A stretch of DNA of 64,000 bases from Laetmonice hystrix. Taxonomy: Eukaryota. Below, piece by piece: positions 1,268-33,700 of this stretch (positions are counted from its first letter, which is position 1; each line of letters begins with the position of its first letter). The translations under genes were made by a program, and so were the position numbers. Where the stretch lies: positions 12,526,001-12,590,000 of the forward strand of contig OZ249436.1 in assembly GCA_965235115.1 (NCBI GenBank), written 5' to 3'. The notes under the pieces were generated by a model, which saw only the letters and a list, made by a program, of their open reading frames with translations, did no database searches and was not told where the DNA came from.

Positions 1268-4200
1268 TATAGAAAAGGCGTACAACGTCATTTGCCATTG
1301 TTAACTAAACCTTGACGGCAAACAGTCATTGGGACGACCTGACAACGTTGTCGGACGCGTACAAATGGTCTGTAGGGGACACATATTATATGAGAGTAGA
1401 TGATATATAGACGAGACGTAGGGCCTGCCTCCTGGACAATAAAGGCATGGAAACATGAAACATGAGGCGTCCCTATACTACTGGCTACTCTTGTATACAA
1501 GCAAACGGTACAGGGAGGCCAAACAGTACAGGGAGGAATCGCTACAAGGTATACTGGCTGACCTAGCACCTAAGCGAACACTACAGTGAGGCCCAAGAGT
1601 ACAGTGAGGCCAAATAGTACACTGTGGGGCCAAGCAGTGTGGGAGGCCAACCAGTAGGGTGAGAAGTCCCTACATCTTACCGGCTGGCCTATAGTAGACA
1701 TGCAAACACTACAGTGAGGTTGTGGAAATGAAAGGTACAAGCCAGGAGCATCTAATGTGAAAATCTGGAGAAGATACTGAAATGGGAAGTGTACACATCA
1801 CAAGCATATATCTGTAGCGAACGTACGAGACCTATACGTTTGACAGTTATACATCTGGCCTAAGAATAATAATTTTGGACGGGCGTAGTTTAAGTTGACG
1901 TATCAAAAATGTAGCCATTTTTCGCTTATCATTGCTTTAATCTGTCTCTCGCCACAGGTGCCTGCCAGCCCGGCCAGGTGTACGTGGTGATTCCACCGCT
2001 GGCCGGAAGGCGGCAGTGCAGTCAGCGCCGCCGCCGCCGCTTCAGTGGAGCTGCGCTGCACCCTAGTGTTTTCTGCCTGCAACATCTGTGTGTCATCTTT
2101 CTTTGTTTGTTTGTTACTTGGGGATGGGATATCTAATATAGAAAAGGCGTACAACGTCATTTGCCATTGTTAACAAAACCTTGACGGCAAACAGTCATTG
2201 GGACGACCTGACAACGTTGTTGGACGCTTACAGATGGTCTGTAGGGGACACAGATTAGATGGGAGTAGATGATAGACGAGACGTAGGGCCTGCCTCCTGG
2301 ACAATAAAGGCATGGAAACATGAAACATGAGGCGTCCCTATACTACTGGCTACTCTTGTATACAAGCAAACGGTACAGGGAGGCCAAACAGTACAGGGAG
2401 GAATCGCTACAAGGTATACTGGCTGACCTACCACCCAAGCGAACACTACAGTGAGGCCAAAGAGTACAGTGAGGCCAAATAGTACACTGTGGGGCCAAGC
2501 AGTGTGGGAGGCCAACCAGTAGAGTGAGAAGTCCCTACATCTTACCGGCTGGCCTATAGTAGCCATGCAAACACTACAGTGAGGTAGTGGAAATGAAAGG
2601 TACAGGCGAGGAGCATCTAATGTAAAAGTCTGGAGAACATACTGAAATGGGAAGTGTACACATCACAAGCATATATCTGTAGCGAACGTACGAGACCTAT
2701 ACGTTTGACAGTTATACATCTGGCCTAAGAATAATAATTTTGGGCGGGCGTAGTTTAAGTTGACGTATCAAAAATGTAGCCATTTTTCGCTTATTATTGC
2801 TTTAACCTGTCTCTCGCCACAGGTGCCTGCCAGCCCGGCCAGGTGTACGTGGTGATTCCACCGCTGGCCGGAAGGCGGCAGTGCAGTCAGCGCCGCAGCC
2901 GCTTCAGTGGAGCTGCGCTGCACCCTGGTGTTTTCTGCCTGCAACATCTGTGTGTCATCTTTCTTTCTTTCTTTGTTACTTGGGGATGGGATATCTGATA
3001 TAGAAAAGGCGTACAACGTCATTTGCCATTGTTAACTAAACCTTGACGGCAAACAGTCATTGGGACGACCTGACAACGTTGTTGGACGCTTACAGATGGT
3101 CTGTATAGGGGACACAGATTAGATGGGAGTAGATGATAGACGAGACGTATGGCCTGCCTCCTGGACAATAAAGGCATGGAAACATGAAACATGAGGCGTC
3201 CCTATACTACTGGCTACTCTTGTATACAAGCAAACGGTACAGGGAGGCCAAACAGTACAGGGAGGAATCGCTACAAGGTATACTGGCTGACCTACCACCC
3301 AAGCGAACACTACAGTGAGGCCAAAGAGTACAGTGAGGCCAAATAGTACACTGTGGGGCCAAGCAGTGTGGGAGGCCAACCAGTAGAGTGAGAAGTCCCT
3401 ACATCTTACCGGCTGGCCTATAGTAGCCATGCAAACACTACAGTGAGGTAGTGGAAATGAAAGGTACAGGCGAGGAGCATCTAATGTGAAAATCTGGAGA
3501 AGATACTGAAATGGGAAGTGTACACATCACAAGCATATATCTGTAGCGAACGTACAAGACCTATACGTTTGACAGTTATACATCTGGCCTAAGAATAATA
3601 ATTTTGGGCGGGCGTAGTTTAAGTTGACGTATCAAAAATGTAGCCATTTTTCGCTTATCATTGCTTTAACCTGTCTCTCGCCACAGGTGCCTGCCAGCCC
3701 GGCCAGGTGTACGTGGTGATTCCACCGCTGGCCGGAAGGCGGCAGTGCAGTCAGCGCCGCCGCCGCCGCTTCAGTGGAGCTGCGCTGCACCCTGGTGTTT
3801 TCTGCCTGCAACATCTGTGTGTCATCTTTCTTTGTTTGTTTGTTACTTGGGGATGGGATATCTGATATAGAAAAGGCGTACAACGTCATTTGCCATTGTT
3901 AACTAAACCTTGACGGCAAACAGTCATTGGGACGACCTGACAACGTTGTCGGACGCGTACAAATGGTCTGTAGGGGACACATATTATATGAGAGTAGATG
4001 ATATATAGACGAGACGTAGGGCCTGCCTCCTGGACAATAAAGGCATGGAAACATGAAACATGAGGCGTCCCTATACTACTGGCTACTCTTGTATACAAGC
4101 AAACGGTACAGGGAGGCCAAACAGTACAGGGAGGAATCGCTACAAGGTATACTGGCTGACCTAGCACCTAAGCGAACACTACAGTGAGGCCCAAGAGTAC

Positions 4201-7200: not shown

Positions 7201-10200
7201 AGGCGGCAGTGCAGTCAGCGCCGCCGCCGCCGCTTCAGTGGAGCTGCGCTGCACCCTAGTGTTTTCTGCCTGCAACATCTGTGTGTCATCTTTCTTTGTT
7301 TGTTTGTTACTTGGGGATGGGATATCTGATATAGAAAAGGCGTACAACGTCATTTGCCATTGTTAACTAAACCTTGACGGCAAACAGTCATTGGGACGAC
7401 CTGACAACGTTGTCGGACGCGTACAAATGGTCTGTAGGGGACACAGATTATATGAGAGTAGATGATATATAGACGAGACGTAGGGCCTGCCTCCTGGACA
7501 ATAAAGGCATGGAAACATGAAACATGAGGCGTCCCTATACTACTGGCTACTCTTGTATACAAGCAAACGGTACAGGGAGGCCAAACAGTACAGGGAGGAA
7601 TCGCTACAAGGTATACTGGCTGACCTAGCACCTAAGCGAACACTACAGTGAGGCCCAAGAGTACAGTGAGGCCAAATAGTACACTGTGGGGCCAAGCAGT
7701 GTGGGAGGCCAACCAGTAGGGTGAGAAGTCCCTACATCTTACCGGCTGGCCTATAGTAGACATGCAAACACTACAGTGAGGTTGTGGAAATGAAAGGTAC
7801 AAGCCAGGAGCATCTAATGTGAAAATCTGGAGAAGATACTGAAATGGGAAGTGTACACATCACAAGCATATATCTGTAGCGAACGTACGAGACCTATACG
7901 TTTGACAGTTATACATCTGGCCTAAGAATAATAATTTTGGACGGGCGTAGTTTAAGTTGACGTATCAAAAATGTAGCCATTTTTCGCTTATCATTGCTTT
8001 AATCTGTCTCTCGCCACAGGTGCCTGCCAGCCCGGCCAGGTGTACGTGGTGATTCCACCGCTGGCCGGAAGGCGGCAGTGCAGTCAGCGCCGCCGCCGCC
8101 GCTTCAGTGGAGCTGCGCTGCACCCTAGTGTTTTCTGCCTGCAACATCTGTGTGTCATCTTTCTTTGTTTGTTTGTTACTTGGGGATGGGATATCTAATA
8201 TAGAAAAGGCGTACAACGTCATTTGCCATTGTTAACTAAACCTTGACGGCAAACAGTCATTGGGACGACCTGACAACGTTGTTGGACGCTTACAGATGGT
8301 CTGTAGGGGACACAGATTAGATGGGAGTAGATGATATATAGACGAGACGTAGGGCCTGCCTCCTGGAGAATGAAGGCACGGAAACATGAAACATAAGGCG
8401 TCCCTATACTACTGGCTACTCTTGTATACAAGCAAACGGTACAGGGAGGCCAAACAGTACAGGGAGGACTCGCTACAAGGTATACTGGCTGACCTAGCTC
8501 CCAAGCGAACACTACAGTGAGGCCAAAGAGTACATTGAGGCCAAATAGTACACTGTGGGGCCAAGCAGTGTGGGAGGCCAACCAGTAGAGTGAGAAGTCC
8601 CTACATCTTACCGGCTGGCCTATAGTAGCCATGCAAACACTACAGTGAGGTAGTGGAAATGAAAGGTACAGGCGAGGAGCATCTAATGTAAAAGTCTGGA
8701 GAACATACTGAAATGGGAAGTGTACACATCACAAGCATATATCTGTAGCGAACGTACGAGACCTATACGTTTGACAGTTATACATCTGGCCTAAGAATAA
8801 TAATTTTGGACGGGCGTAGTTTAAGTTGACGTATCAAAAATGTAGCCATTTTTCGCTTATCATTGCTTTAATCTGTCTCTCGCCACAGGTGCCTGCCAGC
8901 CCGGCCAGGTGTACGTGGTGATTCCACCGCTGGCCGGAAGGCGGCAGTGCAGTCAGCGTCGCCGCCGCTTCAGTGGAGCTGCGCTGCACCCTGGTGTTTT
9001 CTGCCTGCAACATCTGTGTGTCATCTTTCTTTGTTTGTTTGTTACTTGGGGATGGGATATCTGATATAGAAAAGGCGTACAACGTCATTTGCCATTGTTA
9101 ACTAAACCATGACGGCAAACAGTCATTGGGACGACCTGACAACGTTGTTGGACGCTTACAGATGGTCTGTAGGGGACACAGATTATATGAGAGTAGATGA
9201 TATATAGACGAGACGTAGGGCCTGCCTCCTGGACAATAAAGGCATGGAAACATGAAACATGAGGCGTCCCTATACTACTGGCTACTCTTGTATACAAGCA
9301 AACGGTACAGGGAGGCCAAACAGTACAGGGAGGAATCGCTACAAGGTATACTGGCTGACCTAGCACCTAAGCGAACACTACAGTGAGGCCCAAGAGTACA
9401 GTGAGGCCAAATAGTACACTGTGGGGCCAAGCAGTGTGGGAGGCCAACCAGTAGGGTGAGAAGTCCCTACATCTTACCGGCTGGCCTATAGTAGACATGC
9501 AAACACTACAGTGAGGTTGTGGAAATGAAAGGTACAAGCCAGGAGCATCTAATGTGAAAATCTGGAGAAGATACTGAAATGGGAAGTGTACACATCACAA
9601 GCATATATCTGTAGCGAACGTACGAGACCTATACGTTTGACAGTTATACATCTGGCCTAAGAATAATAATTTTGGACGGGCGTAGTTTAAGTTGACGTAT
9701 CAAAAATGTAGCCATTTTTCGCTTATCATTGCTTTAATCTGTCTCTCGCCACAGGTGCCTGCCAGCCCGGCCAGGTGTACGTGGTGATTCCACCGCTGGC
9801 CGGAAGGCGGCAGTGCAGTCAGCGCCGCCGCCGCCGCTTCAGTGGAGCTGCGCTGCACCCTAGTGTTTTCTGCCTGCAACATCTGTGTGTCATCTTTCTT
9901 TGTTTGTTTGTTACTTGGGGATGGGATATCTAATATAGAAAAGGCGTACAACGTCATTTGCCATTGTTAACTAAACCTTGACGGCAAACAGTCATTGGGA
10001 CGACCTGACAACGTTGTCGGACGCGTACAAATGGTCTGTAGGGGACACAGATTATATGAGAGTAGATGATATATAGACGAGACGTAGGGCCTGCCTCCTG
10101 GACAATAAAGGCATGGAAACATGAAACATGAGGCGTCCCTATACTACTGGCTACTCTTGTATACAAGCAAACGGTACAGGGAGGCCAAACAGTACAGGGA

Positions 10201-13200: not shown

Positions 13201-14444
13201 TTTAACCTGTCTCTCGCCACAGGTGCCTGCCAGCCCGGCCAGGTGTACGTGGTGATTCCACCGCTGGCCGGAAGGCGGCAGTGCAGTCAGCGCCGCCGCC
13301 GCCGCTTCAGTGGAGCTGCGCTGCACCCTGGTGTTTTCTGCCTGCAACATCTGTGTGTCATCTTTCTTTGTTTGTTTGTTACTTGGGGATGGGATATCTG
13401 ATATAGAAAAGGCGTACAACGTCATTTGCCATTGTTAACTAAACCTTGACGGCAAACAGTCATTGGGACGACCTGACAACGTTGTTGGACGCTTACAGAT
13501 GGTCTGTAGGGGACACAGATTAGATGGGAGTAGATGATAGACGAGACGTATGGCCTGCCTCCTGGAGAATGAAGGCACGGAAACATGAAACATAAGGCGT
13601 CCCTATACTACTGGCTACTCTTGTATACAAGCAAACGGTACAGGGAGGCCAAACAGTACAGGGAGGACTCGCTACAAGGTATACTGGCTGACCTAGCTCC
13701 CAAGCGAACACTACAGTGAGGCCAAAGAGTACATTGAGGCCAAATAGTACACTGTGGGGCCAAGCAGTGTGGGAGGCCAACCAGTAGAGTGAGAAGTCCC
13801 TACATCTTACCGGCTGGCCTATAGTAGCCATGCAAACACTACAGTGAGGTAGTGGAAATGAAAGGTACAGGCGAGGAGCATCTAATGTAAAAGTCTGGAG
13901 AACATACTGAAATGGGAAGTGTACACATCACAAGCATATATCTGTAGCGAACGTACGAGACCTATACGTTTGACAGTTATACATCTGGCCTAAGAATAAT
14001 AATTTTGGGTGGGCGTAGTTTAAGTTGACGTATCAAAAATGTAGCCATTTTTCGCTTATCATTGCTTTAACCTGTCTCTCGCCACAGGTGCCTGCCAGCC
14101 CGGCCAGGTGTACGTGGTGATTCCACCGCTGGCCGGAAGGCGGCAGTGCAGTCAGCGTCGCCGCCGCTTCAGTGGAGCTGCGCTGCACCCTGGTGTTTTC
14201 TGCCTGCAACATCTGTGTGTCATCTTTCTTTGTTTGTTTGTTACTTGGGGATGGGATATCTGATATAGAAAAGGCGTACAACGTCATTTGCCATTGTTAA
14301 CTAAACCATGACGGCAAACAGTCATTGGGACGACCTGACAACGTTGTTGGACGCTTACAGATGGTCTGTAGGGGACACAGATTATATGAGAGTAGATGAT
14401 ATATAGACGAGACGTAGGGCCTGCCTCCTGGACAATAAAGGCAT

Positions 14445-14546
14445 GTAAGGGTATCACACTGTTGCGAGAGGGGATATCTGGATAACCGCGAGGCGAAGCC
14501 GAGAGGTTATTCAGATATCCACGCGAGCAACAGTGTGATACCATAC
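14445..14546 (+). other. ~100-nt terminal fold-back hairpin of the insertion with GCGAAGC tip (also at +7492 and +14984)
   Basis: GGTATCACACTGTTGC / GCAACAGTGTGATACC and GGATATCTGGATAACC / GGTTATTCAGATATCC arms; tip GGC-GAA-GCC (GCGAAGC at 14493-14499). Confidence 0.93.
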
Positions 14547-14563
14547 GTATACACCAAGGCGTA

Positions 14564-14720
14564 CCGAGCAGTGGGATATTTCCGAAGATATCACACTCTC
14601 GTCACGGCTCCCTGGTCACATATCACACTCTCGTCACGGCTCTCTGGCCACATAACACACTGCAGACGCTTCCGATCCCGAGCAGTGTAACATTGCCGAA
14701 GATATCACACTCTCGTCACA
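14564..14720 (+). repeat. Internal direct repeats of the insertion built on ATATCACACTCTCGTCAC
   Basis: ATATCACACTCTCGTCAC at 14588, 14620 and 14702, with a degenerate ATAACACACT at 14652. A ~43-bp block CCGAGCAGTG...CCGAAGATATCACACTCTCGTCAC occurs twice. Confidence 0.9.
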
Positions 14721-14833
14721 CTTCGCTGGGCACAAGCGATCGGCCCCTCGTTCCACTTGGACGTGGTGGACACGAGTCCTGCTCGATTAGTTTCCATTTT
14801 TAAACACCCGGTCAACGTGTCAACATAACATTA

Positions 14834-15075
14834 GTGGCAGACCATTTAATAGCGGGGGAGGGGTATGGTTTTTTCGTTAAAAAAAGTTGGTTGCCAAGTT
14901 GACCCCCCAAAAATAGTTTGTTACCAAATATACATGTGTGAAATAAAATAGTTTGTTCAGCAATGTGTGTGAAAAAAAGAGATTGTTTATTTATGTTTAT
15001 TGTTTTGTTGCAAGTATAAAAAGTTTGGTCAGAAAGAAAAACCATACCCTCCCCCGCTATTAAATGGTCTGCCCC
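14834..15075. mobile_element. 242-bp MITE of PIF/Harbinger (Tourist-like) type nested in insertion copy 1
   Basis: ~40-bp TIRs GTGGCAGACCATTTAATAGCGGGGGAGGGGTATGGTTTTT / AAAAACCATACCCTCCCCCGCTATTAAATGGTCTGCCCC, flanked by TTA on both sides (14831-14833, 15076-15078), with an AT-rich interior. Confidence 0.88.
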
Positions 15076-15659
15076 TTAGGTGGAATGAGGGACGCTGAAG
15101 CAGAATACCACAGCGTTCTCTATGATCCACTGAGGTGGCCCCGTTGACAACTGCAGGGGGCTCGGCGGTATCTGTGCGGCAGTATTAATTGTGGGAGTTG
15201 CGGCCGAAGCTGCCCGGCATGAGTTTTTCCCTCTATTTTCTTCTTTCTTTAATAGTAAATTCGGAATTATTTGGACAATTACGTTCTCTCGGCACTGAAC
15301 CGCGTCGCTTTGTTTGTACATCTCCAGCTCAGTCGTTCATAGGGGGCGCTGTTTTTTGAGGTCACAAAAAGTGGCCTATACATGTAATTGTATATGCCCC
15401 TATTCTTGTTAAAAACAAAAAAGACTAGAATCCATTCTACTATTCTTGCTGAAGGTCGCATGGGAGACCCTTTCCGTTGTCCTTAATGGTGCCCTTCTGT
15501 TTATTTTTAAGGGATTTTTTTTAAGTACATGAAATCATTATTCTGCCCAAGTACATAATATCATTATTCATTGATAATATGTCGTATGACAGCTCACTTC
15601 GAGAGAAAACAACGAGAAAATCGAGGTGTTTTCTCGAGAGAGAAAAAACAAAACCGAGA

Positions 15660-15710
15660 GGTGCTATCGATATAGGCCCGAGCGAAGCGAGGGCGTATAT
15701 CGATAGCACC
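15660..15710 (+). other. Sub-terminal hairpin of the insertion with GCGAAGC tip (also at +7492 and +14984)
   Basis: Perfect 15-bp arms GGTGCTATCGATATA / TATATCGATAGCACC; inner GCCC-GA-GCGAAGC-GA-GGGC. Confidence 0.93.
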
Positions 15711-15726
15711 GCGAGGATAGGTAGGC

Positions 15727-15799
15727 GTCGCTGTGGCCGAAAAGGTAACAGCGCTGGACGGTGATGCCGCCGTGGTGGGTTCGAATCCTGCCGACGGCA
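15727..15799 (+). ncRNA. 73-nt tRNA-like element / Pol III type-2 promoter (not a canonical tRNA), copy 1
   Basis: GTCGCTG TGGCCGAAAAGGTA (A-box-like) ... GTGGG TTCGAAT CCTGC (T-arm, B-box GGTTCGAATCC) CGACGGC A. The acceptor stem pairs 6/7 counting G-U; the anticodon arm pairs poorly. Confidence 0.7.
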
Positions 15800-18700
15800 A
15801 ACACCGTCCAAAGGCGATATGCGTATCGCCATGGGGGCCAGAATATCCCACGGCCCCATGGTGTATACGGAAACATGAAACATGAGGCGTCCCTATACTA
15901 CTGGCTACTCTTGTATACAAGCAAACGGTACAGGGAGGCCAAACAGTACAGGGAGGAATCGCTACAAGGTATACTGGCTGACCTAGCACCTAAGCGAACA
16001 CTACAGTGAGGCCCAAGAGTACAGTGAGGCCAAATAGTACACTGTGGGGCCAAGCAGTGTGGGAGGCCAACCAGTAGGGTGAGAAGTCCCTACATCTTAC
16101 CGGCTGGCCTATAGTAGACATGCAAACACTACAGTGAGGTTGTGGAAATGAAAGGTACAAGCCAGGAGCATCTAATGTGAAAATCTGGAGAAGATACTGA
16201 AATGGGAAGTGTACACATCACAAGCATATATCTGTAGCGAACGTACGAGACCTATACGTTTGACAGTTATACATCTGGCCTAAGAATAATAATTTTGGAC
16301 GGGCGTAGTTTAAGTTGACGTATCAAAAATGTAGCCATTTTTCGCTTATCATTGCTTTAATCTGTCTCTCGCCACAGGTGCCTGCCAGCCCGGCCAGGTG
16401 TACGTGGTGATTCCACCGCTGGCCGGAAGGCGGCAGTGCAGTCAGCGCCGCCGCCGCCGCTTCAGTGGAGCTGCGCTGCACCCTAGTGTTTTCTGCCTGC
16501 AACATCTGTGTGTCATCTTTCTTTGTTTGTTTGTTACTTGGGGATGGGATATCTAATATAGAAAAGGCGTACAACGTCATTTGCCATTGTTAACTAAACC
16601 TTGACGGCAAACAGTCATTGGGACGACCTGACAACGTTGTTGGACGCTTACAGATGGTCTGTAGGGGACACAGATTAGATGGGAGTACATGATAGACGAG
16701 ACGTATGGCCTGCCTCCTGGACAATAAAGGCATGGAAACATGAAACATGAGGCGTCCCTATACTACTGGCTACTCTTGTATACAAGCAAACGGTACAGGG
16801 AGGCCAAACAGTACAGGGAGGAATCGCTACAAGGTATACTGGCTGACCTACCACCCAAGCGAACACTACAGTGAGGCCAAAGAGTACAGTGAGGCCAAAT
16901 AGTACACTGTGGGGCCAAGCAGTGTGGGAGGCCAACCAGTAGAGTGAGAAGTCCCTACATCTTACCGGCTGGCCTATAGTAGCCATGCAAACACTACAGT
17001 GAGGTAGTGGAAATGAAAGGTACAGGCGAGGAGCATCTAATGTAAAAGTCTGGAGAAGATACTGAAATGGGAAGTGTACACATCACAAGCATATATCTGT
17101 AGCGAACGTACGAGACCTATACGTTTGACAGTTATACATCTGGCCTAAGAATAATAATTTTGGGCGGGCGTAGTTTAAGTTGACGTATCAAAAATGTAGC
17201 CATTTTTCGCTTATCATTGCTTTAACCTGTCTCTCGCCACAGGTGCCTGCCAGCCCGGCCAGGTGTACGTGGTGATTCCACCGCTGGCCGGAAGGCGGCA
17301 GTGCAGTCAGCGCCGCCGCCGCCGCTTCAGTGGAGCTGCGCTGCACCCTGGTGTTTTCTGCCTGCAACATCTGTGTGTCATCTTTCTTTGTTTGTTTGTT
17401 ACTTGGGGATGGGATATCTGATATAGAAAAGGCGTACAACGTCATTTGCCATTGTTAACTAAACCTTGACGGCAAACAGTCATTGGGACGACCTGACAAC
17501 GTTGTCGGACGCGTACAAATGGTCTGTAGGGGACACAGATTATATGAGAGTAGATGATATATAGACGAGACGTAGGGCCTGCCTCCTGGACAATAAAGGC
17601 ATGGAAACATGAAACATGAGGCGTCCCTATACTACTGGCTACTCTTGTATACAAGCAAACGGTACAGGGAGGCCAAACAGTACAGGGAGGAATCGCTACA
17701 AGGTATACTGGCTGACCTAGCACCTAAGCGAACACTACAGTGAGGCCCAAGAGTACAGTGAGGCCAAATAGTACACTGTGGGGCCAAGCAGTGTGGGAGG
17801 CCAACCAGTAGGGTGAGAAGTCCCTACATCTTACCGGCTGGCCTATAGTAGACATGCAAACACTACAGTGAGGTTGTGGAAATGAAAGGTACAAGCCAGG
17901 AGCATCTAATGTGAAAATCTGGAGAAGATACTGAAATGGGAAGTGTACACATCACAAGCATATATCTGTAGCGAACGTACGAGACCTATACGTTTGACAG
18001 TTATACATCTGGCCTAAGAATAATAATTTTGGACGGGCGTAGTTTAAGTTGACGTATCAAAAATGTAGCCATTTTTCGCTTATCATTGCTTTAATCTGTC
18101 TCTCGCCACAGGTGCCTGCCAGCCCGGCCAGGTGTACGTGGTGATTCCACCGCTGGCCGGAAGGCGGCAGTGCAGTCAGCGCCGCCGCCGCCGCTTCAGT
18201 GGAGCTGCGCTGCACCCTAGTGTTTTCTGCCTGCAACATCTGTGTGTCATCTTTCTTTGTTTGTTTGTTACTTGGGGATGGGATATCTAATATAGAAAAG
18301 GCGTACAACGTCATTTGCCATTGTTAACTAAACCTTGACGGCAAACAGTCATTGGGACGACCTGACAACGTTGTTGGACGCTTACAGATGGTCTGTAGGG
18401 GACACAGATTAGATGGGAGTAGATGATAGACGAGACGTATGGCCTGCCTCCTGGACAATAAAGGCATGGAAACATGAAACATGAGGCGTCCCTATACTAC
18501 TGGCTACTCTTGTATACAAGCAAACGGTACAGGGAGGCCAAACAGTACAGGGAGGAATCGCTACAAGGTATACTGGCTGACCTACCACCCAAGCGAACAC
18601 TACAGTGAGGCCAAAGAGTACAGTGAGGCCAAATAGTACACTGTGGGGCCAAGCAGTGTGGGAGGCCAACCAGTAGAGTGAGAAGTCCCTACATCTTACC

Positions 18701-21700: not shown

Positions 21701-22325
21701 ACATCTGTGTGTCATCTTTCTTTGTTTGTTTGTTACTTGGGGATGGGATATCTGATATAGAAAAGGCGTACAACGTCATTTGCCATTGTTAACTAAACCA
21801 TGACGGCAAACAGTCATTGGGACGACCTGACAACGTTGTTGGACGCTTACAGATGGTCTGTAGGGGACACAGATTATATGAGAGTAGATGATATATAGAC
21901 GAGACGTAGGGCCTGCCTCCTGGACAATAAAGGCATGTAAGGGTATCACACTGTTGCGAGAGGGGATATCTGGATAACCGCGAGGCGAAGCCGAGAGGTT
22001 ATTCAGATATCCACGCGAGCAACAGTGTGATACCATACGTATACACCAAGGCGTACCGAGCAGTGGGATATTTCCGAAGATATCACACTCTCGTCACGGC
22101 TCCCTGGTCACATATCACACTCTCGTCACGGCTCTCTGGCCACATAACACACTGCAGACGCTTCCGATCCCGAGCAGTGTAACATTGCCGAAGATATCAC
22201 ACTCTCGTCACACTTCGCTGGGCACAAGCGATCGGCCCCTCGTTCCACTTGGACGTGGTGGACACGAGTCCTGCTCGATTAGTTTCCATTTTTAAACACC
22301 CGGTCAACGTGTCAACATAACATTA

Positions 22326-22567
22326 GTGGCAGACCATTTAATAGCGGGGGAGGGGTATGGTTTTTTCGTTAAAAAAAGTTGGTTGCCAAGTTGACCCCCC
22401 AAAAATAGTTTGTTACCAAATATACATGTGTGAAATAAAATAGTTTGTTCAGCAATGTGTGTGAAAAAAAGAGATTGTTTATTTATGTTTATTGTTTTGT
22501 TGCAAGTATAAAAAGTTTGGTCAGAAAGAAAAACCATACCCTCCCCCGCTATTAAATGGTCTGCCCC
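22326..22567. mobile_element. Same MITE, copy 2
   Basis: Same TIRs and TTA TSD at +7492. Confidence 0.88.
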
Positions 22568-23218
22568 TTAGGTGGAATGAGGGACGCTGAAGCAGAATAC
22601 CACAGCGTTCTCTATGATCCACTGAGGTGGCCCCGTTGACAACTGCAGGGGGCTCGGCGGTATCTGTGCGGCAGTATTAATTGTGGGAGTTGCGGCCGAA
22701 GCTGCCCGGCATGAGTTTTTCCCTCTATTTTCTTCTTTCTTTAATAGTAAATTCGGAATTATTTGGACAATTACGTTCTCTCGGCACTGAACCGCGTCGC
22801 TTTGTTTGTACATCTCCAGCTCAGTCGTTCATAGGGGGCGCTGTTTTTTGAGGTCACAAAAAGTGGCCTATACATGTAATTGTATATGCCCCTATTCTTG
22901 TTAAAAACAAAAAAGACTAGAATCCATTCTACTATTCTTGCTGAAGGTCGCATGGGAGACCCTTTCCGTTGTCCTTAATGGTGCCCTTCTGTTTATTTTT
23001 AAGGGATTTTTTTTAAGTACATGAAATCATTATTCTGCCCAAGTACATAATATCATTATTCATTGATAATATGTCGTATGACAGCTCACTTCGAGAGAAA
23101 ACAACGAGAAAATCGAGGTGTTTTCTCGAGAGAGAAAAAACAAAACCGAGAGGTGCTATCGATATAGGCCCGAGCGAAGCGAGGGCGTATATCGATAGCA
23201 CCGCGAGGATAGGTAGGC

Positions 23219-23291
23219 GTCGCTGTGGCCGAAAAGGTAACAGCGCTGGACGGTGATGCCGCCGTGGTGGGTTCGAATCCTGCCGACGGCA
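23219..23291 (+). ncRNA. tRNA-like element, copy 2
   Basis: Same sequence at +7492. Confidence 0.7.
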
Positions 23292-26200
23292 AACACCGTC
23301 CAAAGGCGATATGCGTATCGCCATGGGGGCCAGAATATCCCACGGCCCCATGGTGTATACGGAAACATGAAACATGAGGCGTCCCTATACTACTGGCTAC
23401 TCTTGTATACAAGCAAACGGTACAGGGAGGCCAAACAGTACAGGGAGGAATCGCTACAAGGTATACTGGCTGACCTAGCACCTAAGCGAACACTACAGTG
23501 AGGCCCAAGAGTACAGTGAGGCCAAATAGTACACTGTGGGGCCAAGCAGTGTGGGAGGCCAACCAGTAGGGTGAGAAGTCCCTACATCTTACCGGCTGGC
23601 CTATAGTAGACATGCAAACACTACAGTGAGGTTGTGGAAATGAAAGGTACAAGCCAGGAGCATCTAATGTGAAAATCTGGAGAAGATACTGAAATGGGAA
23701 GTGTACACATCACAAGCATATATCTGTAGCGAACGTACGAGACCTATACGTTTGACAGTTATACATCTGGCCTAAGAATAATAATTTTGGACGGGCGTAG
23801 TTTAAGTTGACGTATCAAAAATGTAGCCATTTTTCGCTTATCATTGCTTTAATCTGTCTCTCGCCACAGGTGCCTGCCAGCCCGGCCAGGTGTACGTGGT
23901 GATTCCACCGCTGGCCGGAAGGCGGCAGTGCAGTCAGCGCCGCCGCCGCCGCTTCAGTGGAGCTGCGCTGCACCCTAGTGTTTTCTGCCTGCAACATCTG
24001 TGTGTCATCTTTCTTTGTTTGTTTGTTACTTGGGGATGGGATATCTAATATAGAAAAGGCGTACAACGTCATTTGCCATTGTTAACTAAACCTTGACGGC
24101 AAACAGTCATTGGGACGACCTGACAACGTTGTTGGACGCTTACAGATGGTCTGTAGGGGACACAGATTAGATGGGAGTACATGATAGACGAGACGTATGG
24201 CCTGCCTCCTGGACAATAAAGGCATGGAAACATGAAACATGAGGCGTCCCTATACTACTGGCTACTCTTGTATACAAGCAAACGGTACAGGGAGGCCAAA
24301 CAGTACAGGGAGGAATCGCTACAAGGTATACTGGCTGACCTACCACCCAAGCGAACACTACAGTGAGGCCAAAGAGTACAGTGAGGCCAAATAGTACACT
24401 GTGGGGCCAAGCAGTGTGGGAGGCCAACCAGTAGAGTGAGAAGTCCCTACATCTTACCGGCTGGCCTATAGTAGCCATGCAAACACTACAGTGAGGTAGT
24501 GGAAATGAAAGGTACAGGCGAGGAGCATCTAATGTAAAAGTCTGGAGAAGATACTGAAATGGGAAGTGTACACATCACAAGCATATATCTGTAGCGAACG
24601 TACGAGACCTATACGTTTGACAGTTATACATCTGGCCTAAGAATAATAATTTTGGGCGGGCGTAGTTTAAGTTGACGTATCAAAAATGTAGCCATTTTTC
24701 GCTTATCATTGCTTTAACCTGTCTCTCGCCACAGGTGCCTGCCAGCCCGGCCAGGTGTACGTGGTGATTCCACCGCTGGCCGGAAGGCGGCAGTGCAGTC
24801 AGCGCCGCCGCCGCCGCTTCAGTGGAGCTGCGCTGCACCCTGGTGTTTTCTGCCTGCAACATCTGTGTGTCATCTTTCTTTGTTTGTTTGTTACTTGGGG
24901 ATGGGATATCTGATATAGAAAAGGCGTACAACGTCATTTGCCATTGTTAACTAAACCTTGACGGCAAACAGTCATTGGGACGACCTGACAACGTTGTCGG
25001 ACGCGTACAAATGGTCTGTAGGGGACACAGATTATATGAGAGTAGATGATATATAGACGAGACGTAGGGCCTGCCTCCTGGACAATAAAGGCATGGAAAC
25101 ATGAAACATGAGGCGTCCCTATACTACTGGCTACTCTTGTATACAAGCAAACGGTACAGGGAGGCCAAACAGTACAGGGAGGAATCGCTACAAGGTATAC
25201 TGGCTGACCTAGCACCTAAGCGAACACTACAGTGAGGCCCAAGAGTACAGTGAGGCCAAATAGTACACTGTGGGGCCAAGCAGTGTGGGAGGCCAACCAG
25301 TAGGGTGAGAAGTCCCTACATCTTACCGGCTGGCCTATAGTAGACATGCAAACACTACAGTGAGGTTGTGGAAATGAAAGGTACAAGCCAGGAGCATCTA
25401 ATGTGAAAATCTGGAGAAGATACTGAAATGGGAAGTGTACACATCACAAGCATATATCTGTAGCGAACGTACGAGACCTATACGTTTGACAGTTATACAT
25501 CTGGCCTAAGAATAATAATTTTGGACGGGCGTAGTTTAAGTTGACGTATCAAAAATGTAGCCATTTTTCGCTTATCATTGCTTTAATCTGTCTCTCGCCA
25601 CAGGTGCCTGCCAGCCCGGCCAGGTGTACGTGGTGATTCCACCGCTGGCCGGAAGGCGGCAGTGCAGTCAGCGCCGCCGCCGCCGCTTCAGTGGAGCTGC
25701 GCTGCACCCTAGTGTTTTCTGCCTGCAACATCTGTGTGTCATCTTTCTTTGTTTGTTTGTTACTTGGGGATGGGATATCTAATATAGAAAAGGCGTACAA
25801 CGTCATTTGCCATTGTTAACTAAACCTTGACGGCAAACAGTCATTGGGACGACCTGACAACGTTGTTGGACGCTTACAGATGGTCTGTAGGGGACACAGA
25901 TTAGATGGGAGTAGATGATAGACGAGACGTATGGCCTGCCTCCTGGACAATAAAGGCATGGAAACATGAAACATGAGGCGTCCCTATACTACTGGCTACT
26001 CTTGTATACAAGCAAACGGTACAGGGAGGCCAAACAGTACAGGGAGGAATCGCTACAAGGTATACTGGCTGACCTACCACCCAAGCGAACACTACAGTGA
26101 GGCCAAAGAGTACAGTGAGGCCAAATAGTACACTGTGGGGCCAAGCAGTGTGGGAGGCCAACCAGTAGAGTGAGAAGTCCCTACATCTTACCGGCTGGCC

Positions 26201-29200: not shown

Positions 29201-29817
29201 GTGTCATCTTTCTTTGTTTGTTTGTTACTTGGGGATGGGATATCTGATATAGAAAAGGCGTACAACGTCATTTGCCATTGTTAACTAAACCATGACGGCA
29301 AACAGTCATTGGGACGACCTGACAACGTTGTTGGACGCTTACAGATGGTCTGTAGGGGACACAGATTATATGAGAGTAGATGATATATAGACGAGACGTA
29401 GGGCCTGCCTCCTGGACAATAAAGGCATGTAAGGGTATCACACTGTTGCGAGAGGGGATATCTGGATAACCGCGAGGCGAAGCCGAGAGGTTATTCAGAT
29501 ATCCACGCGAGCAACAGTGTGATACCATACGTATACACCAAGGCGTACCGAGCAGTGGGATATTTCCGAAGATATCACACTCTCGTCACGGCTCCCTGGT
29601 CACATATCACACTCTCGTCACGGCTCTCTGGCCACATAACACACTGCAGACGCTTCCGATCCCGAGCAGTGTAACATTGCCGAAGATATCACACTCTCGT
29701 CACACTTCGCTGGGCACAAGCGATCGGCCCCTCGTTCCACTTGGACGTGGTGGACACGAGTCCTGCTCGATTAGTTTCCATTTTTAAACACCCGGTCAAC
29801 GTGTCAACATAACATTA

Positions 29818-30059
29818 GTGGCAGACCATTTAATAGCGGGGGAGGGGTATGGTTTTTTCGTTAAAAAAAGTTGGTTGCCAAGTTGACCCCCCAAAAATAG
29901 TTTGTTACCAAATATACATGTGTGAAATAAAATAGTTTGTTCAGCAATGTGTGTGAAAAAAAGAGATTGTTTATTTATGTTTATTGTTTTGTTGCAAGTA
30001 TAAAAAGTTTGGTCAGAAAGAAAAACCATACCCTCCCCCGCTATTAAATGGTCTGCCCC
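29818..30059. mobile_element. Same MITE, copy 3
   Basis: Same TIRs and TTA TSD at +14984. Confidence 0.88.
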
Positions 30060-30710
30060 TTAGGTGGAATGAGGGACGCTGAAGCAGAATACCACAGCGT
30101 TCTCTATGATCCACTGAGGTGGCCCCGTTGACAACTGCAGGGGGCTCGGCGGTATCTGTGCGGCAGTATTAATTGTGGGAGTTGCGGCCGAAGCTGCCCG
30201 GCATGAGTTTTTCCCTCTATTTTCTTCTTTCTTTAATAGTAAATTCGGAATTATTTGGACAATTACGTTCTCTCGGCACTGAACCGCGTCGCTTTGTTTG
30301 TACATCTCCAGCTCAGTCGTTCATAGGGGGCGCTGTTTTTTGAGGTCACAAAAAGTGGCCTATACATGTAATTGTATATGCCCCTATTCTTGTTAAAAAC
30401 AAAAAAGACTAGAATCCATTCTACTATTCTTGCTGAAGGTCGCATGGGAGACCCTTTCCGTTGTCCTTAATGGTGCCCTTCTGTTTATTTTTAAGGGATT
30501 TTTTTTAAGTACATGAAATCATTATTCTGCCCAAGTACATAATATCATTATTCATTGATAATATGTCGTATGACAGCTCACTTCGAGAGAAAACAACGAG
30601 AAAATCGAGGTGTTTTCTCGAGAGAGAAAAAACAAAACCGAGAGGTGCTATCGATATAGGCCCGAGCGAAGCGAGGGCGTATATCGATAGCACCGCGAGG
30701 ATAGGTAGGC

Positions 30711-30783
30711 GTCGCTGTGGCCGAAAAGGTAACAGCGCTGGACGGTGATGCCGCCGTGGTGGGTTCGAATCCTGCCGACGGCA
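30711..30783 (+). ncRNA. tRNA-like element, copy 3
   Basis: Same sequence at +14984. Confidence 0.7.
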
Positions 30784-33700
30784 AACACCGTCCAAAGGCG
30801 ATATGCGTATCGCCATGGGGGCCAGAATATCCCACGGCCCCATGGTGTATACGGAAACATGAAACATGAGGCGTCCCTATACTACTGGCTACTCTTGTAT
30901 ACAAGCAAACGGTACAGGGAGGCCAAACAGTACAGGGAGGAATCGCTACAAGGTATACTGGCTGACCTAGCACCTAAGCGAACACTACAGTGAGGCCCAA
31001 GAGTACAGTGAGGCCAAATAGTACACTGTGGGGCCAAGCAGTGTGGGAGGCCAACCAGTAGGGTGAGAAGTCCCTACATCTTACCGGCTGGCCTATAGTA
31101 GACATGCAAACACTACAGTGAGGTTGTGGAAATGAAAGGTACAAGCCAGGAGCATCTAATGTGAAAATCTGGAGAAGATACTGAAATGGGAAGTGTACAC
31201 ATCACAAGCATATATCTGTAGCGAACGTACGAGACCTATACGTTTGACAGTTATACATCTGGCCTAAGAATAATAATTTTGGACGGGCGTAGTTTAAGTT
31301 GACGTATCAAAAATGTAGCCATTTTTCGCTTATCATTGCTTTAATCTGTCTCTCGCCACAGGTGCCTGCCAGCCCGGCCAGGTGTACGTGGTGATTCCAC
31401 CGCTGGCCGGAAGGCGGCAGTGCAGTCAGCGCCGCCGCCGCCGCTTCAGTGGAGCTGCGCTGCACCCTGGTGTTTTCTGCCTGCAACATCTGTGTGTCAT
31501 CTTTCTTTGTTTGTTTGTTACTTGGGGATGGGATATCTGATATAGAAAAGGCGTACAACGTCATTTGCCATTGTTAACTAAACCTTGACGGCAAACAGTC
31601 ATTGGGACGACCTGACAACGTTGTCGGACGCGTACAAATGGTCTGTAGGGGACACAGATTATATGAGAGTAGATGATATATAGACGAGACGTAGGGCCTG
31701 CCTCCTGGACAATAAAGGCATGGAAACATGAAACATGAGGCGTCCCTATACTACTGGCTACTCTTGTATACAAGCAAACGGTACAGGGAGGCCAAACAGT
31801 ACAGGGAGGAATCGCTACAAGGTATACTGGCTGACCTAGCACCTAAGCGAACACTACAGTGAGGCCCAAGAGTACAGTGAGGCCAAATAGTACACTGTGG
31901 GGCCAAGCAGTGTGGGAGGCCAACCAGTAGGGTGAGAAGTCCCTACATCTTACCGGCTGGCCTATAGTAGACATGCAAACACTACAGTGAGGTTGTGGAA
32001 ATGAAAGGTACAAGCCAGGAGCATCTAATGTGAAAATCTGGAGAAGATACTGAAATGGGAAGTGTACACATCACAAGCATATATCTGTAGCGAACGTACG
32101 AGACCTATACGTTTGACAGTTATACATCTGGCCTAAGAATAATAATTTTGGACGGGCGTAGTTTAAGTTGACGTATCAAAAATGTAGCCATTTTTCGCTT
32201 ATCATTGCTTTAATCTGTCTCTCGCCACAGGTGCCTGCCAGCCCGGCCAGGTGTACGTGGTGATTCCACCGCTGGCCGGAAGGCGGCAGTGCAGTCAGCG
32301 CCGCCGCCGCCGCTTCAGTGGAGCTGCGCTGCACCCTAGTGTTTTCTGCCTGCAACATCTGTGTGTCATCTTTCTTTGTTTGTTTGTTACTTGGGGATGG
32401 GATATCTAATATAGAAAAGGCGTACAACGTCATTTGCCATTGTTAACTAAACCTTGACGGCAAACAGTCATTGGGACGACCTGACAACGTTGTTGGACGC
32501 TTACAGATGGTCTGTAGGGGACACAGATTAGATGGGAGTACATGATAGACGAGACGTATGGCCTGCCTCCTGGACAATAAAGGCATGGAAACATGAAACA
32601 TGAGGCGTCCCTATACTACTGGCTACTCTTGTATACAAGCAAACGGTACAGGGAGGCCAAACAGTACAGGGAGGAATCGCTACAAGGTATACTGGCTGAC
32701 CTACCACCCAAGCGAACACTACAGTGAGGCCAAAGAGTACAGTGAGGCCAAATAGTACACTGTGGGGCCAAGCAGTGTGGGAGGCCAACCAGTAGAGTGA
32801 GAAGTCCCTACATCTTACCGGCTGGCCTATAGTAGCCATGCAAACACTACAGTGAGGTAGTGGAAATGAAAGGTACAGGCGAGGAGCATCTAATGTAAAA
32901 GTCTGGAGAAGATACTGAAATGGGAAGTGTACACATCACAAGCATATATCTGTAGCGAACGTACGAGACCTATACGTTTGACAGTTATACATCTGGCCTA
33001 AGAATAATAATTTTGGGCGGGCGTAGTTTAAGTTGACGTATCAAAAATGTAGCCATTTTTCGCTTATCATTGCTTTAACCTGTCTCTCGCCACAGGTGCC
33101 TGCCAGCCCGGCCAGGTGTACGTGGTGATTCCACCGCTGGCCGGAAGGCGGCAGTGCAGTCAGCGCCGCCGCCGCCGCTTCAGTGGAGCTGCGCTGCACC
33201 CTGGTGTTTTCTGCCTGCAACATCTGTGTGTCATCTTTCTTTGTTTGTTTGTTACTTGGGGATGGGATATCTGATATAGAAAAGGCGTACAACGTCATTT
33301 GCCATTGTTAACTAAACCTTGACGGCAAACAGTCATTGGGACGACCTGACAACGTTGTCGGACGCGTACAAATGGTCTGTAGGGGACACAGATTATATGA
33401 GAGTAGATGATATATAGACGAGACGTAGGGCCTGCCTCCTGGACAATAAAGGCATGGAAACATGAAACATGAGGCGTCCCTATACTACTGGCTACTCTTG
33501 TATACAAGCAAACGGTACAGGGAGGCCAAACAGTACAGGGAGGAATCGCTACAAGGTATACTGGCTGACCTAGCACCTAAGCGAACACTACAGTGAGGCC
33601 CAAGAGTACAGTGAGGCCAAATAGTACACTGTGGGGCCAAGCAGTGTGGGAGGCCAACCAGTAGGGTGAGAAGTCCCTACATCTTACCGGCTGGCCTATA

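What the first reader, a model, noticed from the sequence alone, without database searches (positions are those of the whole stretch)
14445..15868. TSD-less, non-coding, hairpin-built mobile element, possibly mobilised by a tyrosine recombinase
Seen: exactly 1424 bp inserted at GGCAT^GGAAAC with no duplication, no long TIRs at the true ends and no poly(A) tail. The ends are asymmetric. A ~100-nt fold-back forms the left end, and directly inside it CGTATACACCA...GTGGGATATT (14546-14580) is an inverted match to the right end AATATCCCAC...TGGTGTATACG (15842-15869). Known: lack of TSD points to tyrosine-recombinase elements (Crypton, DIRS/Ngaro) or HUH elements (Helitron) rather than DDE transposons or LINE/SINEs. 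Inference: a non-autonomous Crypton-like element. The ATATCACAC motif plus palindrome layout resembles my recollection of animal Crypton-type non-autonomous elements, which I cannot verify here.
Basis: partly seen in the sequence, partly recalled or inferred. Interest (0 to 1): 0.72.

Follow-up and report, generated by a model that had tools for sequence, protein, structure and literature searches.

The report
Self-splinting hairpin-ended transposon in satellite
A 1.4-kb protein-less insertion sits cleanly in an animal-type satellite array and carries an internal mirror copy of its own joined ends beside a 100-base hairpin, so it likely moves as a folded single DNA strand closed into a circle by a borrowed tyrosine recombinase (Crypton-type), an end design that I did not find described for these elements.

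Summary
A 1424-bp non-coding insertion (14445-15868) sits in an ~866-bp satellite with no target duplication, against 66 empty sites. Its three identical copies here are one insertion amplified in a 7492-bp higher-order repeat.

Bases 14498-14580 are the reverse complement of the joined ends (right end + left end). The folded top strand therefore holds its first and last base side by side on an internal splint. All 7 opposed mismatches of the 102-nt left hairpin are G·A on that strand.

A sequence-unrelated metagenome family (6 loci, one complete 556-bp copy) has the same plan and the same GTAA start after six different flanks. Reads from other runs show diverged relatives and one copy whose match starts exactly at the left end.

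No partner enzyme was found. Best reading (0.5): a non-autonomous Crypton-type tyrosine-recombinase transposon moving through a folded single strand. The main rival, Helitron2/Helentron (0.2), shares the topology but fails the T^T target rule. A nested TTA-flanked MITE and a tRNA-like A/B-box module are also inside.

The parts
14445..15868 (+). Whole element, 1424 bp, GTAAGGG...GGTGTATAC; non-coding; 1179 bp without the nested MITE and one TSD copy
14445..14546 (+). Left terminal hairpin, 102 nt, GC-GAA-GC apex; all 7 opposed mismatches are G·A (two tandem GA/GA, three single) on the top strand
   Evidence: bottom strand folds 6 kcal/mol weaker
14498..14580 (-). Internal splint: reverse complement of the joined ends; 14498-14546 pairs with the left end, 14547-14580 with the right end
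   Evidence: alignment; 10-base exact match from 14547 and joint fold
14564..14734 (+). Subterminal direct repeats (32-bp unit, 57-bp duplication) carrying TA(T/A)C(A/C)CAC motifs; candidate protein-binding sites (inferred)
   Evidence: (D1, D3)
14834..15075 (.). Nested 242-bp MITE with ~40-bp TIRs and TTA target duplication (PIF/Harbinger-like by established TSD rule); passenger
   Evidence: (I2, I4)
15654..15716 (+). Second GC-GAA-GC hairpin with tandem GA/GA, same strand as the left hairpin
   Evidence: I3, D2; z -7.5
15727..15799 (+). tRNA-like segment with A box and B box, facing the right end; not an intact tRNA
   Evidence: Rfam tRNA 20.9 bits, below gathering 29; ARAGORN none; A+B pattern in 0 of 20000 simulations
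15823..15868 (+). Right-end hairpin (-12 kcal/mol) that competes with pairing of the right end to the splint
15842..15868 (+). Right terminus, two blocks inverted to 14547-14580
   Evidence: I6, I8
14440..14444 (+). Left flank of target (GGCAT); right flank GGAAAC starts at 15869; no duplication
21937..23360 (+). Identical copy 2 (higher-order repeat amplification)
29429..30852 (+). Identical copy 3 (higher-order repeat amplification)

Best explanation
This is a non-coding insertion with no target duplication whose folded top strand is predicted to hold its two ends side by side on an internal splint, and it is likely a non-autonomous Crypton-type DNA transposon moved in trans by a tyrosine recombinase acting on that folded strand. 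Shown: clean insertion, the hairpin, splint complementarity, one-strand G·A mismatches, and the same plan in a second family. [quoted passage not shown] The splint would replace the short end-to-end homology that tyrosine recombinases normally need, which would explain why neither direct repeats nor a TSD are seen. The interior (MITE, tRNA-like piece) would be passenger.
For: No TSD against 66 empty sites. Joined ends align with the reverse complement of 14498-14580, in exact register at the hairpin foot: 10 bases in the window, 9 in family B (about 1e-6 and 4e-6 at a fixed position). 7 of 7 opposed mismatches of the left hairpin are G·A on one strand (about 3e-5 by hand count); that tandem G·A pairs and GNA loops stabilise DNA hairpins is recalled knowledge. 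Family B (L005-L010) shares only the ~20-nt apex by BLAST, starts GTAA after six unrelated flanks, and its complete copy L009:1200-1755 has no end homology with its target. Precedents: the DIRS circle-junction splint (PMC5633606, passages), folded-strand recombination at integron attC (PMC2727003, abstract), one-strand circles made by bacterial YR elements (PMC9345347, passages). Animal CryptonA/I elements were reported to lack terminal direct repeats and to have non-autonomous derivatives (PMC3212892, passages and supplement 1).
Against: No recombinase gene or remnant was found in the element or beside any relative. The topology (repeat at one end, partner just inside a hairpin at the other end, small hairpin over the first repeat) is also that of Helitron2 (PMC3627910, passages). 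Family B's right end begins TT on the other strand, as Helitron2 does. Only two sites have both junctions, and one (L009) lies in a TA microsatellite where a TA duplication cannot be excluded. The inner GA/GA of family B was part of the search pattern. The X4 copy has four hairpin changes that, read against the fold, break pairs and are not compensatory. No circle junction appears among the 15 of 59 joints shown. The flank letters of record 19 were not displayed.
Confidence: 0.5

Rival explanations
1. A non-autonomous Helitron2/Helentron (HLE2, HINE/DINE-1-like), read on the minus strand, moved by a RepHel HUH enzyme by rolling circle; the inverted match is the pair of asymmetric TIRs.
For: Same topology: repeat at the very end folded into its own small hairpin, partner directly inside the far hairpin; no TSD; internal tandem repeats (PMC3627910, PMC4067079, PMC11417382, passages; HLE2-reverse has the hairpin at the 5' end). 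Family B's end starts with TT on the minus strand. Unchecked scan notes place Helentron-type elements in this genome.
Against: HLE2 inserts between T and T with T-rich flanks; the two complete sites are T^G (window) and T^A (L009), and the last left-flank base is T in 5 and A in 2 of 7 sites. The window element's minus-strand first base is G, not T. The hairpin is 102-106 nt and runs to the terminal base, against a repeat 20-30 bp (Helitron2) or 38-60 bp (HINE) from the end with a 5-10 bp palindrome.
Confidence: 0.2
2. A non-autonomous Crypton-type element that recombines as ordinary double-stranded DNA; hairpin arms and inner repeat are inverted protein-binding sites and folding is incidental.
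For: Same lack of TSD; 8 copies of one motif in both orientations near the ends; the published Crypton model uses a double-stranded circle (PMC13565253, passages).
Against: It does not explain why mismatches are G·A on one strand in both families, the GAA apex, or the exact register of the splint at the junction.
Confidence: 0.15
3. [quoted passage not shown]
For: Complementarity to both ends is the definition of the ICR (PMC6681497, PMC8969392, PMC5633606, passages). A Pol III-type promoter is present. An unchecked note reports a Ngaro/PAT-type element in this genome.
Against: No pair of long inverted terminal repeats, which DIRS with ICR require, and no split direct repeats. The A/B box lies about 140 nt from the right end and points outward, so it cannot yield a full-length transcript.
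Confidence: 0.11
4. A genomic fragment captured once into the satellite, not mobile by itself.
For: All three window copies come from one event; the high depth in X1/X2 could be array amplification.
Against: Diverged relatives and a record matching from exactly the left end; structured ends in exact register; a second family with the same plan at six flanks.
Confidence: 0.03

Closest known systems
Non-autonomous animal Cryptons (CryptonA/I derivatives such as CryptonA-1N1_OL, CryptonI-1N1_RPro; Eulor5/6 and salmon Crypton-N1_SSa) (PMC3212892, PMC5753468)
   Same: Short, non-coding, no TSD, no TIR or direct repeat at the true ends, animal-type host
   Different: The passages read describe no terminal hairpin or junction splint; sequence comparison with these families was not possible (no Repbase/Dfam; figure 1c of PMC5753468 not visible); no recombinase partner found
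Helitron2 / Helentron / HINE / DINE-1 (HLE2) (PMC3627910, PMC4067079, PMC11417382)
   Same: Asymmetric inverted repeat, hairpins at both ends, no TSD, internal tandem repeats
   Different: Target is not T^T; hairpin is ~100 nt and reaches the last base; the splint covers both ends
DIRS-1-type retrotransposons with ICR (PMC5633606, PMC6681497)
   Same: Internal segment complementary to both ends, i.e. to the circle junction; no TSD
   Different: No long ITR pair, no RT, no promoter placed to give a full-length RNA
Integron attC sites and bacterial SE elements (PMC2727003, PMC9345347)
   Same: Functional analogy only: imperfect hairpin whose unpaired features differ between strands; tyrosine recombinase giving one-strand circles
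   Different: Bacterial; no sequence relation tested; different site anatomy
ATons of Aedes aegypti (PMC3422177)
   Same: Non-autonomous, no clear TSD, partner unknown
   Different: ATons have TIRs at the true ends and insert at AT

Membership tests
Crypton (CryptonA-type) | Autonomous partner encodes only a tyrosine recombinase (DUF3504, R-H-R-Y) | not testable with these tools
   No genome held; no remnant in the element; PF12012 search of 4 virus records was blank, and blank in the controls too
Crypton (CryptonA-type) | No TSD and no TIR at the true ends | tested here: met
Crypton (CryptonF/S) | 4-6 bp direct repeat at both termini | tested here: not met
   At most 1 bp (G) in the window, none in L009; animal CryptonA/I are reported to lack it too (PMC3212892)
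Crypton (CryptonA-type) | Terminal sequence similarity to curated Crypton families | not testable with these tools
   Repbase/Dfam not available
Helitron2/Helentron (HLE2) | Asymmetric short inverted repeats with hairpins at both ends | tested here: met
   (far hairpin much longer than described)
Helitron2/Helentron (HLE2) | Insertion between T and T, T-rich flanks | tested here: not met
   0 of 2 complete sites (T^G, T^A); last left-flank base T in 5, A in 2 of 7
Helitron2/Helentron (HLE2) | 5' terminal T | tested here: inconclusive
   G in the window element, T in family B on the minus strand
Helitron2/Helentron (HLE2) | RepHel partner | not testable with these tools
   No genome held
Helitron1 | 5' TC, 3' CTRR, insertion between A and T | tested here: not met
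   Ends GT...AC on both strands; site T^G
DIRS (ITR + ICR type) | Internal region complementary to both ends | tested here: met
DIRS (ITR + ICR type) | Long inverted terminal repeats at both ends | tested here: not met
Ngaro/PAT/VIPER | Split direct repeats A1...B1 A2 B2 | tested here: not met
   No long direct repeats involving the ends
DDE TIR transposon / MITE (outer element) | TIRs at the true ends and a TSD | tested here: not met
   the nested 242-bp element does meet it
tRNA-derived SINE (whole element) | tRNA head at the 5' end, tail, TSD | tested here: not met
   tRNA-like piece is internal, 70 nt before the right end, with no tail or TSD

The most novel reading that the evidence does not exclude
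Animal Crypton-type transposons move by a peel-out route on a folded single DNA strand: an internal splint aligns the two ends, so a tyrosine recombinase can close the circle and insert it with no shared homology, reading a G·A-mismatch hairpin as integron integrases read attC. This would be a eukaryotic folded-strand recombinase system with a ~170-bp minimal cis signal.
Probability: 0.4. Interest if true: 0.8.

Novelty: new variant of a known kind. Interest (0 to 1): 0.5.

Why it matters
The Crypton transposition mechanism has not been shown experimentally (PMC13565253, passages), and animal Cryptons were reported to have no terminal repeats (PMC3212892), which leaves open how their recombinase joins the ends. 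The splint gives a concrete answer that can be tested with oligonucleotides. It would link Crypton DNA transposons to the DIRS circle-junction mechanism and give curators a structural signature for elements that are now hard to bound. If the partner is RepHel instead, the element is an unusual Helitron2 and of modest interest. The element itself is one more non-coding repeat; the same design was already noted by this scan in other genomes.

Tried and rejected
Own-genome search: no genome held.

Viral contig scans with seven patterns (3, 1, 0, 74, 0, 3, 3 loci): no relative. A detector for long hairpin plus splint flagged 2 weak viral candidates among the 78 viral loci then held; I set both aside as low-complexity matches. 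L109-L111 have a shorter hairpin and L112-L114 none of this kind.

GTDB scan: 23 prokaryote loci, none with the element's plan; 21 neighbouring ORFs from 8 of them held no transposase or recombinase. L011 has the hairpin but no splint partner in its 1642 bases, so it is not counted.

PF12012 in 4 virus records: blank, controls blank too. Rfam: nothing at gathering score; mir-1285 is a generic hairpin hit. No RNA holder listed. Run X5 is a small share: a 151-nt piece at depth 2. The read lay included satellite flanks, which filled the loose-end and joint tables (492 and 44 rows not shown), so dispersed flanks and circle junctions could not be read. Depth ratios (core 3100-4100, diverged single contigs 38-88) are not copy numbers.

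Look-ups of earlier findings by sequence, place and some word sets were blank. Nine literature searches listed no paper whose title or abstract start describes a terminal hairpin or junction splint in Cryptons; Repbase Reports and subscription reviews are not in the library. PMC12166591 (passages) held nothing relevant.
Full report
Setting. The whole window is a satellite array of 862-869-bp monomers. The finding is an insertion in one monomer. It occurs three times (14445, 21937, 29429); the copies are identical and lie in a 7492-bp higher-order repeat whose two full units differ at one base. They are one insertion, later amplified. No genome is held for the window.

Observation. The element is 1424 bp. 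Of 69 sites examined, 66 are empty and show that nothing was duplicated or lost. One G is shared, so the window alone allows two boundaries. The left 102 nt fold at -35.2 kcal/mol as DNA, with 0 of 200 shuffles as good. Four element ORFs had no Pfam hit, and 12 stop-masked frames gave one hit at E 0.11.

The two features are one design. Joining the right end to the left end gives a sequence that aligns with the reverse complement of 14498-14580. The 3' hairpin arm pairs with the left end, and the bases that follow pair with the right end, 10 of them exactly, starting at the hairpin foot. A fold of both ends with the interior removed puts the first and last base next to each other on this splint. 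All 7 opposed mismatches in the left hairpin are G·A on the top strand; a second hairpin at 15654-15716 has the same apex and only purine-purine mismatches. That GNA loops and tandem G·A pairs stabilise DNA hairpins is recalled knowledge, not a tool result. A motif TA(T/A)C(A/C)CAC occurs 8 times, all within 270 bp of the left end or 25 bp of the right; 3000 simulations gave at most 3.

Other contents. A 242-bp MITE with TTA duplication is nested at 14834-15075. A tRNA-like segment at 15727-15799 scores 20.9 bits in Rfam, below the cut-off of 29, and is not called by ARAGORN, but its A+B box pattern arose in 0 of 20000 simulations. It points toward the right end and cannot give a full-length transcript. 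Its role is unexplained; it may be a captured SINE head.

Is it mobile? Five runs from two studies hold part of it; four were laid. In X1 the majority letter differs from the window at 9 of the displayed places inside the element at 80% of depth or more (68 rows not shown), so the common copies there are not the window copy. Several records are 85-95% alike or match over only part of their length. A high-depth contig crosses the MITE's left edge without change, so the MITE predates the spread. I could not tell dispersed copies from array copies, and no circle junction is among the 15 of 59 joints shown.

A second family. A metagenome scan for the hairpin apex gave 7 loci. Six (L005-L010) are one family that shares only the ~20-nt apex with the window element. 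Their flanking ORFs include animal-type genes (7tm_1, STING). All six start GTAA after unrelated flanks. L009 holds a complete 556-bp copy: a 106-nt hairpin (z -11.5), then 9 bases that match its right end exactly. Across the seven left flanks the base at -2 is always A and the base at -1 is T (5) or A (2); both right ends also have A at -2. Caveats: the inner GA/GA was in the search pattern, and L009 lies in a TA run. L011 has a similar hairpin but no splint partner in its contig and is not counted.

Mechanism. I commit to a non-autonomous Crypton-type element moved by a tyrosine recombinase through the folded top strand (0.5). The structure is shown; the enzyme and every reaction step are inferred. 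Tyrosine recombinases normally need a short homologous overlap (PMC3212892, passages, describes 6-8 bp spacers and 4-6 bp direct repeats in fungal Cryptons). The same paper and its supplement 1 report no terminal repeats in animal Cryptons. A splint would supply the alignment from inside the element. DIRS-1 is proposed to use an internal complementary region in this way (PMC5633606, passages). Integron integrases recombine one folded strand chosen by unpaired features (PMC2727003, abstract). Bacterial SE elements give one-strand circles with tyrosine recombinases (PMC9345347, passages).

Rivals. Helitron2/Helentron has the same topology (PMC3627910, PMC4067079, PMC11417382, passages), and family B's minus-strand TT start fits it. 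It inserts between T and T, which fails at 0 of 2 complete sites, and its far hairpin is small and subterminal; 0.2. A conventional double-stranded Crypton route does not explain the strand-biased mismatches; 0.15. DIRS meets the ICR test but lacks long ITRs (PMC6681497, PMC8969392, passages); 0.11. A one-off captured fragment; 0.03.

What failed. No partner enzyme was found: eight viral and prokaryote pattern scans gave no relatives (screened in 24, 40, 44, 61, 72), and a DUF3504 search was blank, also in its controls. Membership in Crypton is therefore untested on its defining feature. My recollection that curated animal Crypton derivatives look like this is a lead only; PMC5753468 (passages) confirms that Eulor5/6 resemble salmon non-autonomous Cryptons at their termini, but the figure was not visible.

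Earlier scan notes (8 of 31 shown) report the same hairpin and junction copy in Crypton-type elements of other genomes, at least one said to encode a recombinase. I read them after forming my reading and could not check their recombinase link; they are not counted as evidence.

Novelty. Nine searches listed no paper describing this end design in Cryptons; PMC13465315 (abstract, passages) calls their terminal repeats variable or poorly conserved, and PMC13565253 (passages) says the mechanism is not demonstrated. Repbase Reports and subscription reviews were out of reach and may describe it. Verdict: a real mobile element, likely of a known superfamily, with an end design that makes an open mechanism testable; new variant of a known kind; interest 0.5.

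Noticed in passing
window 1-64000: ~866-bp satellite (34 distinct among 65 monomers) with 18-bp subrepeats and a 7492-bp higher-order repeat marked by the insertion; no Rfam family at cut-off in the stretch scanned; also present in run X5 of a second organism label
   Followed up: partly
window 14834-15075: Young-looking 242-bp MITE with TTA duplication nested in the element; carried by the common copies in X1 and by the X4 copy
   Followed up: partly
window 15727-15810: tRNA-like A/B-box segment; its middle is predicted to pair with the bases just after it (15755 with 15803) instead of forming an anticodon arm
   Followed up: partly
L009:1437-1692: Family B copy carries its own nested TIR element with TA flanks (Tc1/mariner-like by the TSD rule)
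   Followed up: no
L005:189-1466 (-): STING-like open frame (STING_TM and STING_LBD hits) ends right at the family B left end
   Followed up: no
L008:297-1286 and 3165-4160: Inverted pair of 84%-identical single-exon 7TM receptor-like frames next to a family B left end
   Followed up: no
L011:118-275: Third family with a ~155-nt near-perfect hairpin, same apex and two tandem GA/GA; other end not in the contig
   Followed up: partly
L096, L097, L108 (about 8000-8060), L091:557-601: Intergenic hairpins in several gut bacterial genomes share the same GAA apex with tandem GA/GA and a -10-like box on the 3' arm; no transposase among neighbouring ORFs
   Followed up: partly
L109-L111:6001-6042; L112:4087-4151; L114:2668-2733: Phage intergenic hairpins or clusters with the same apex family; L112/L114 lie between UvsW-like helicase and SbcCD-like nuclease genes
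   Followed up: partly
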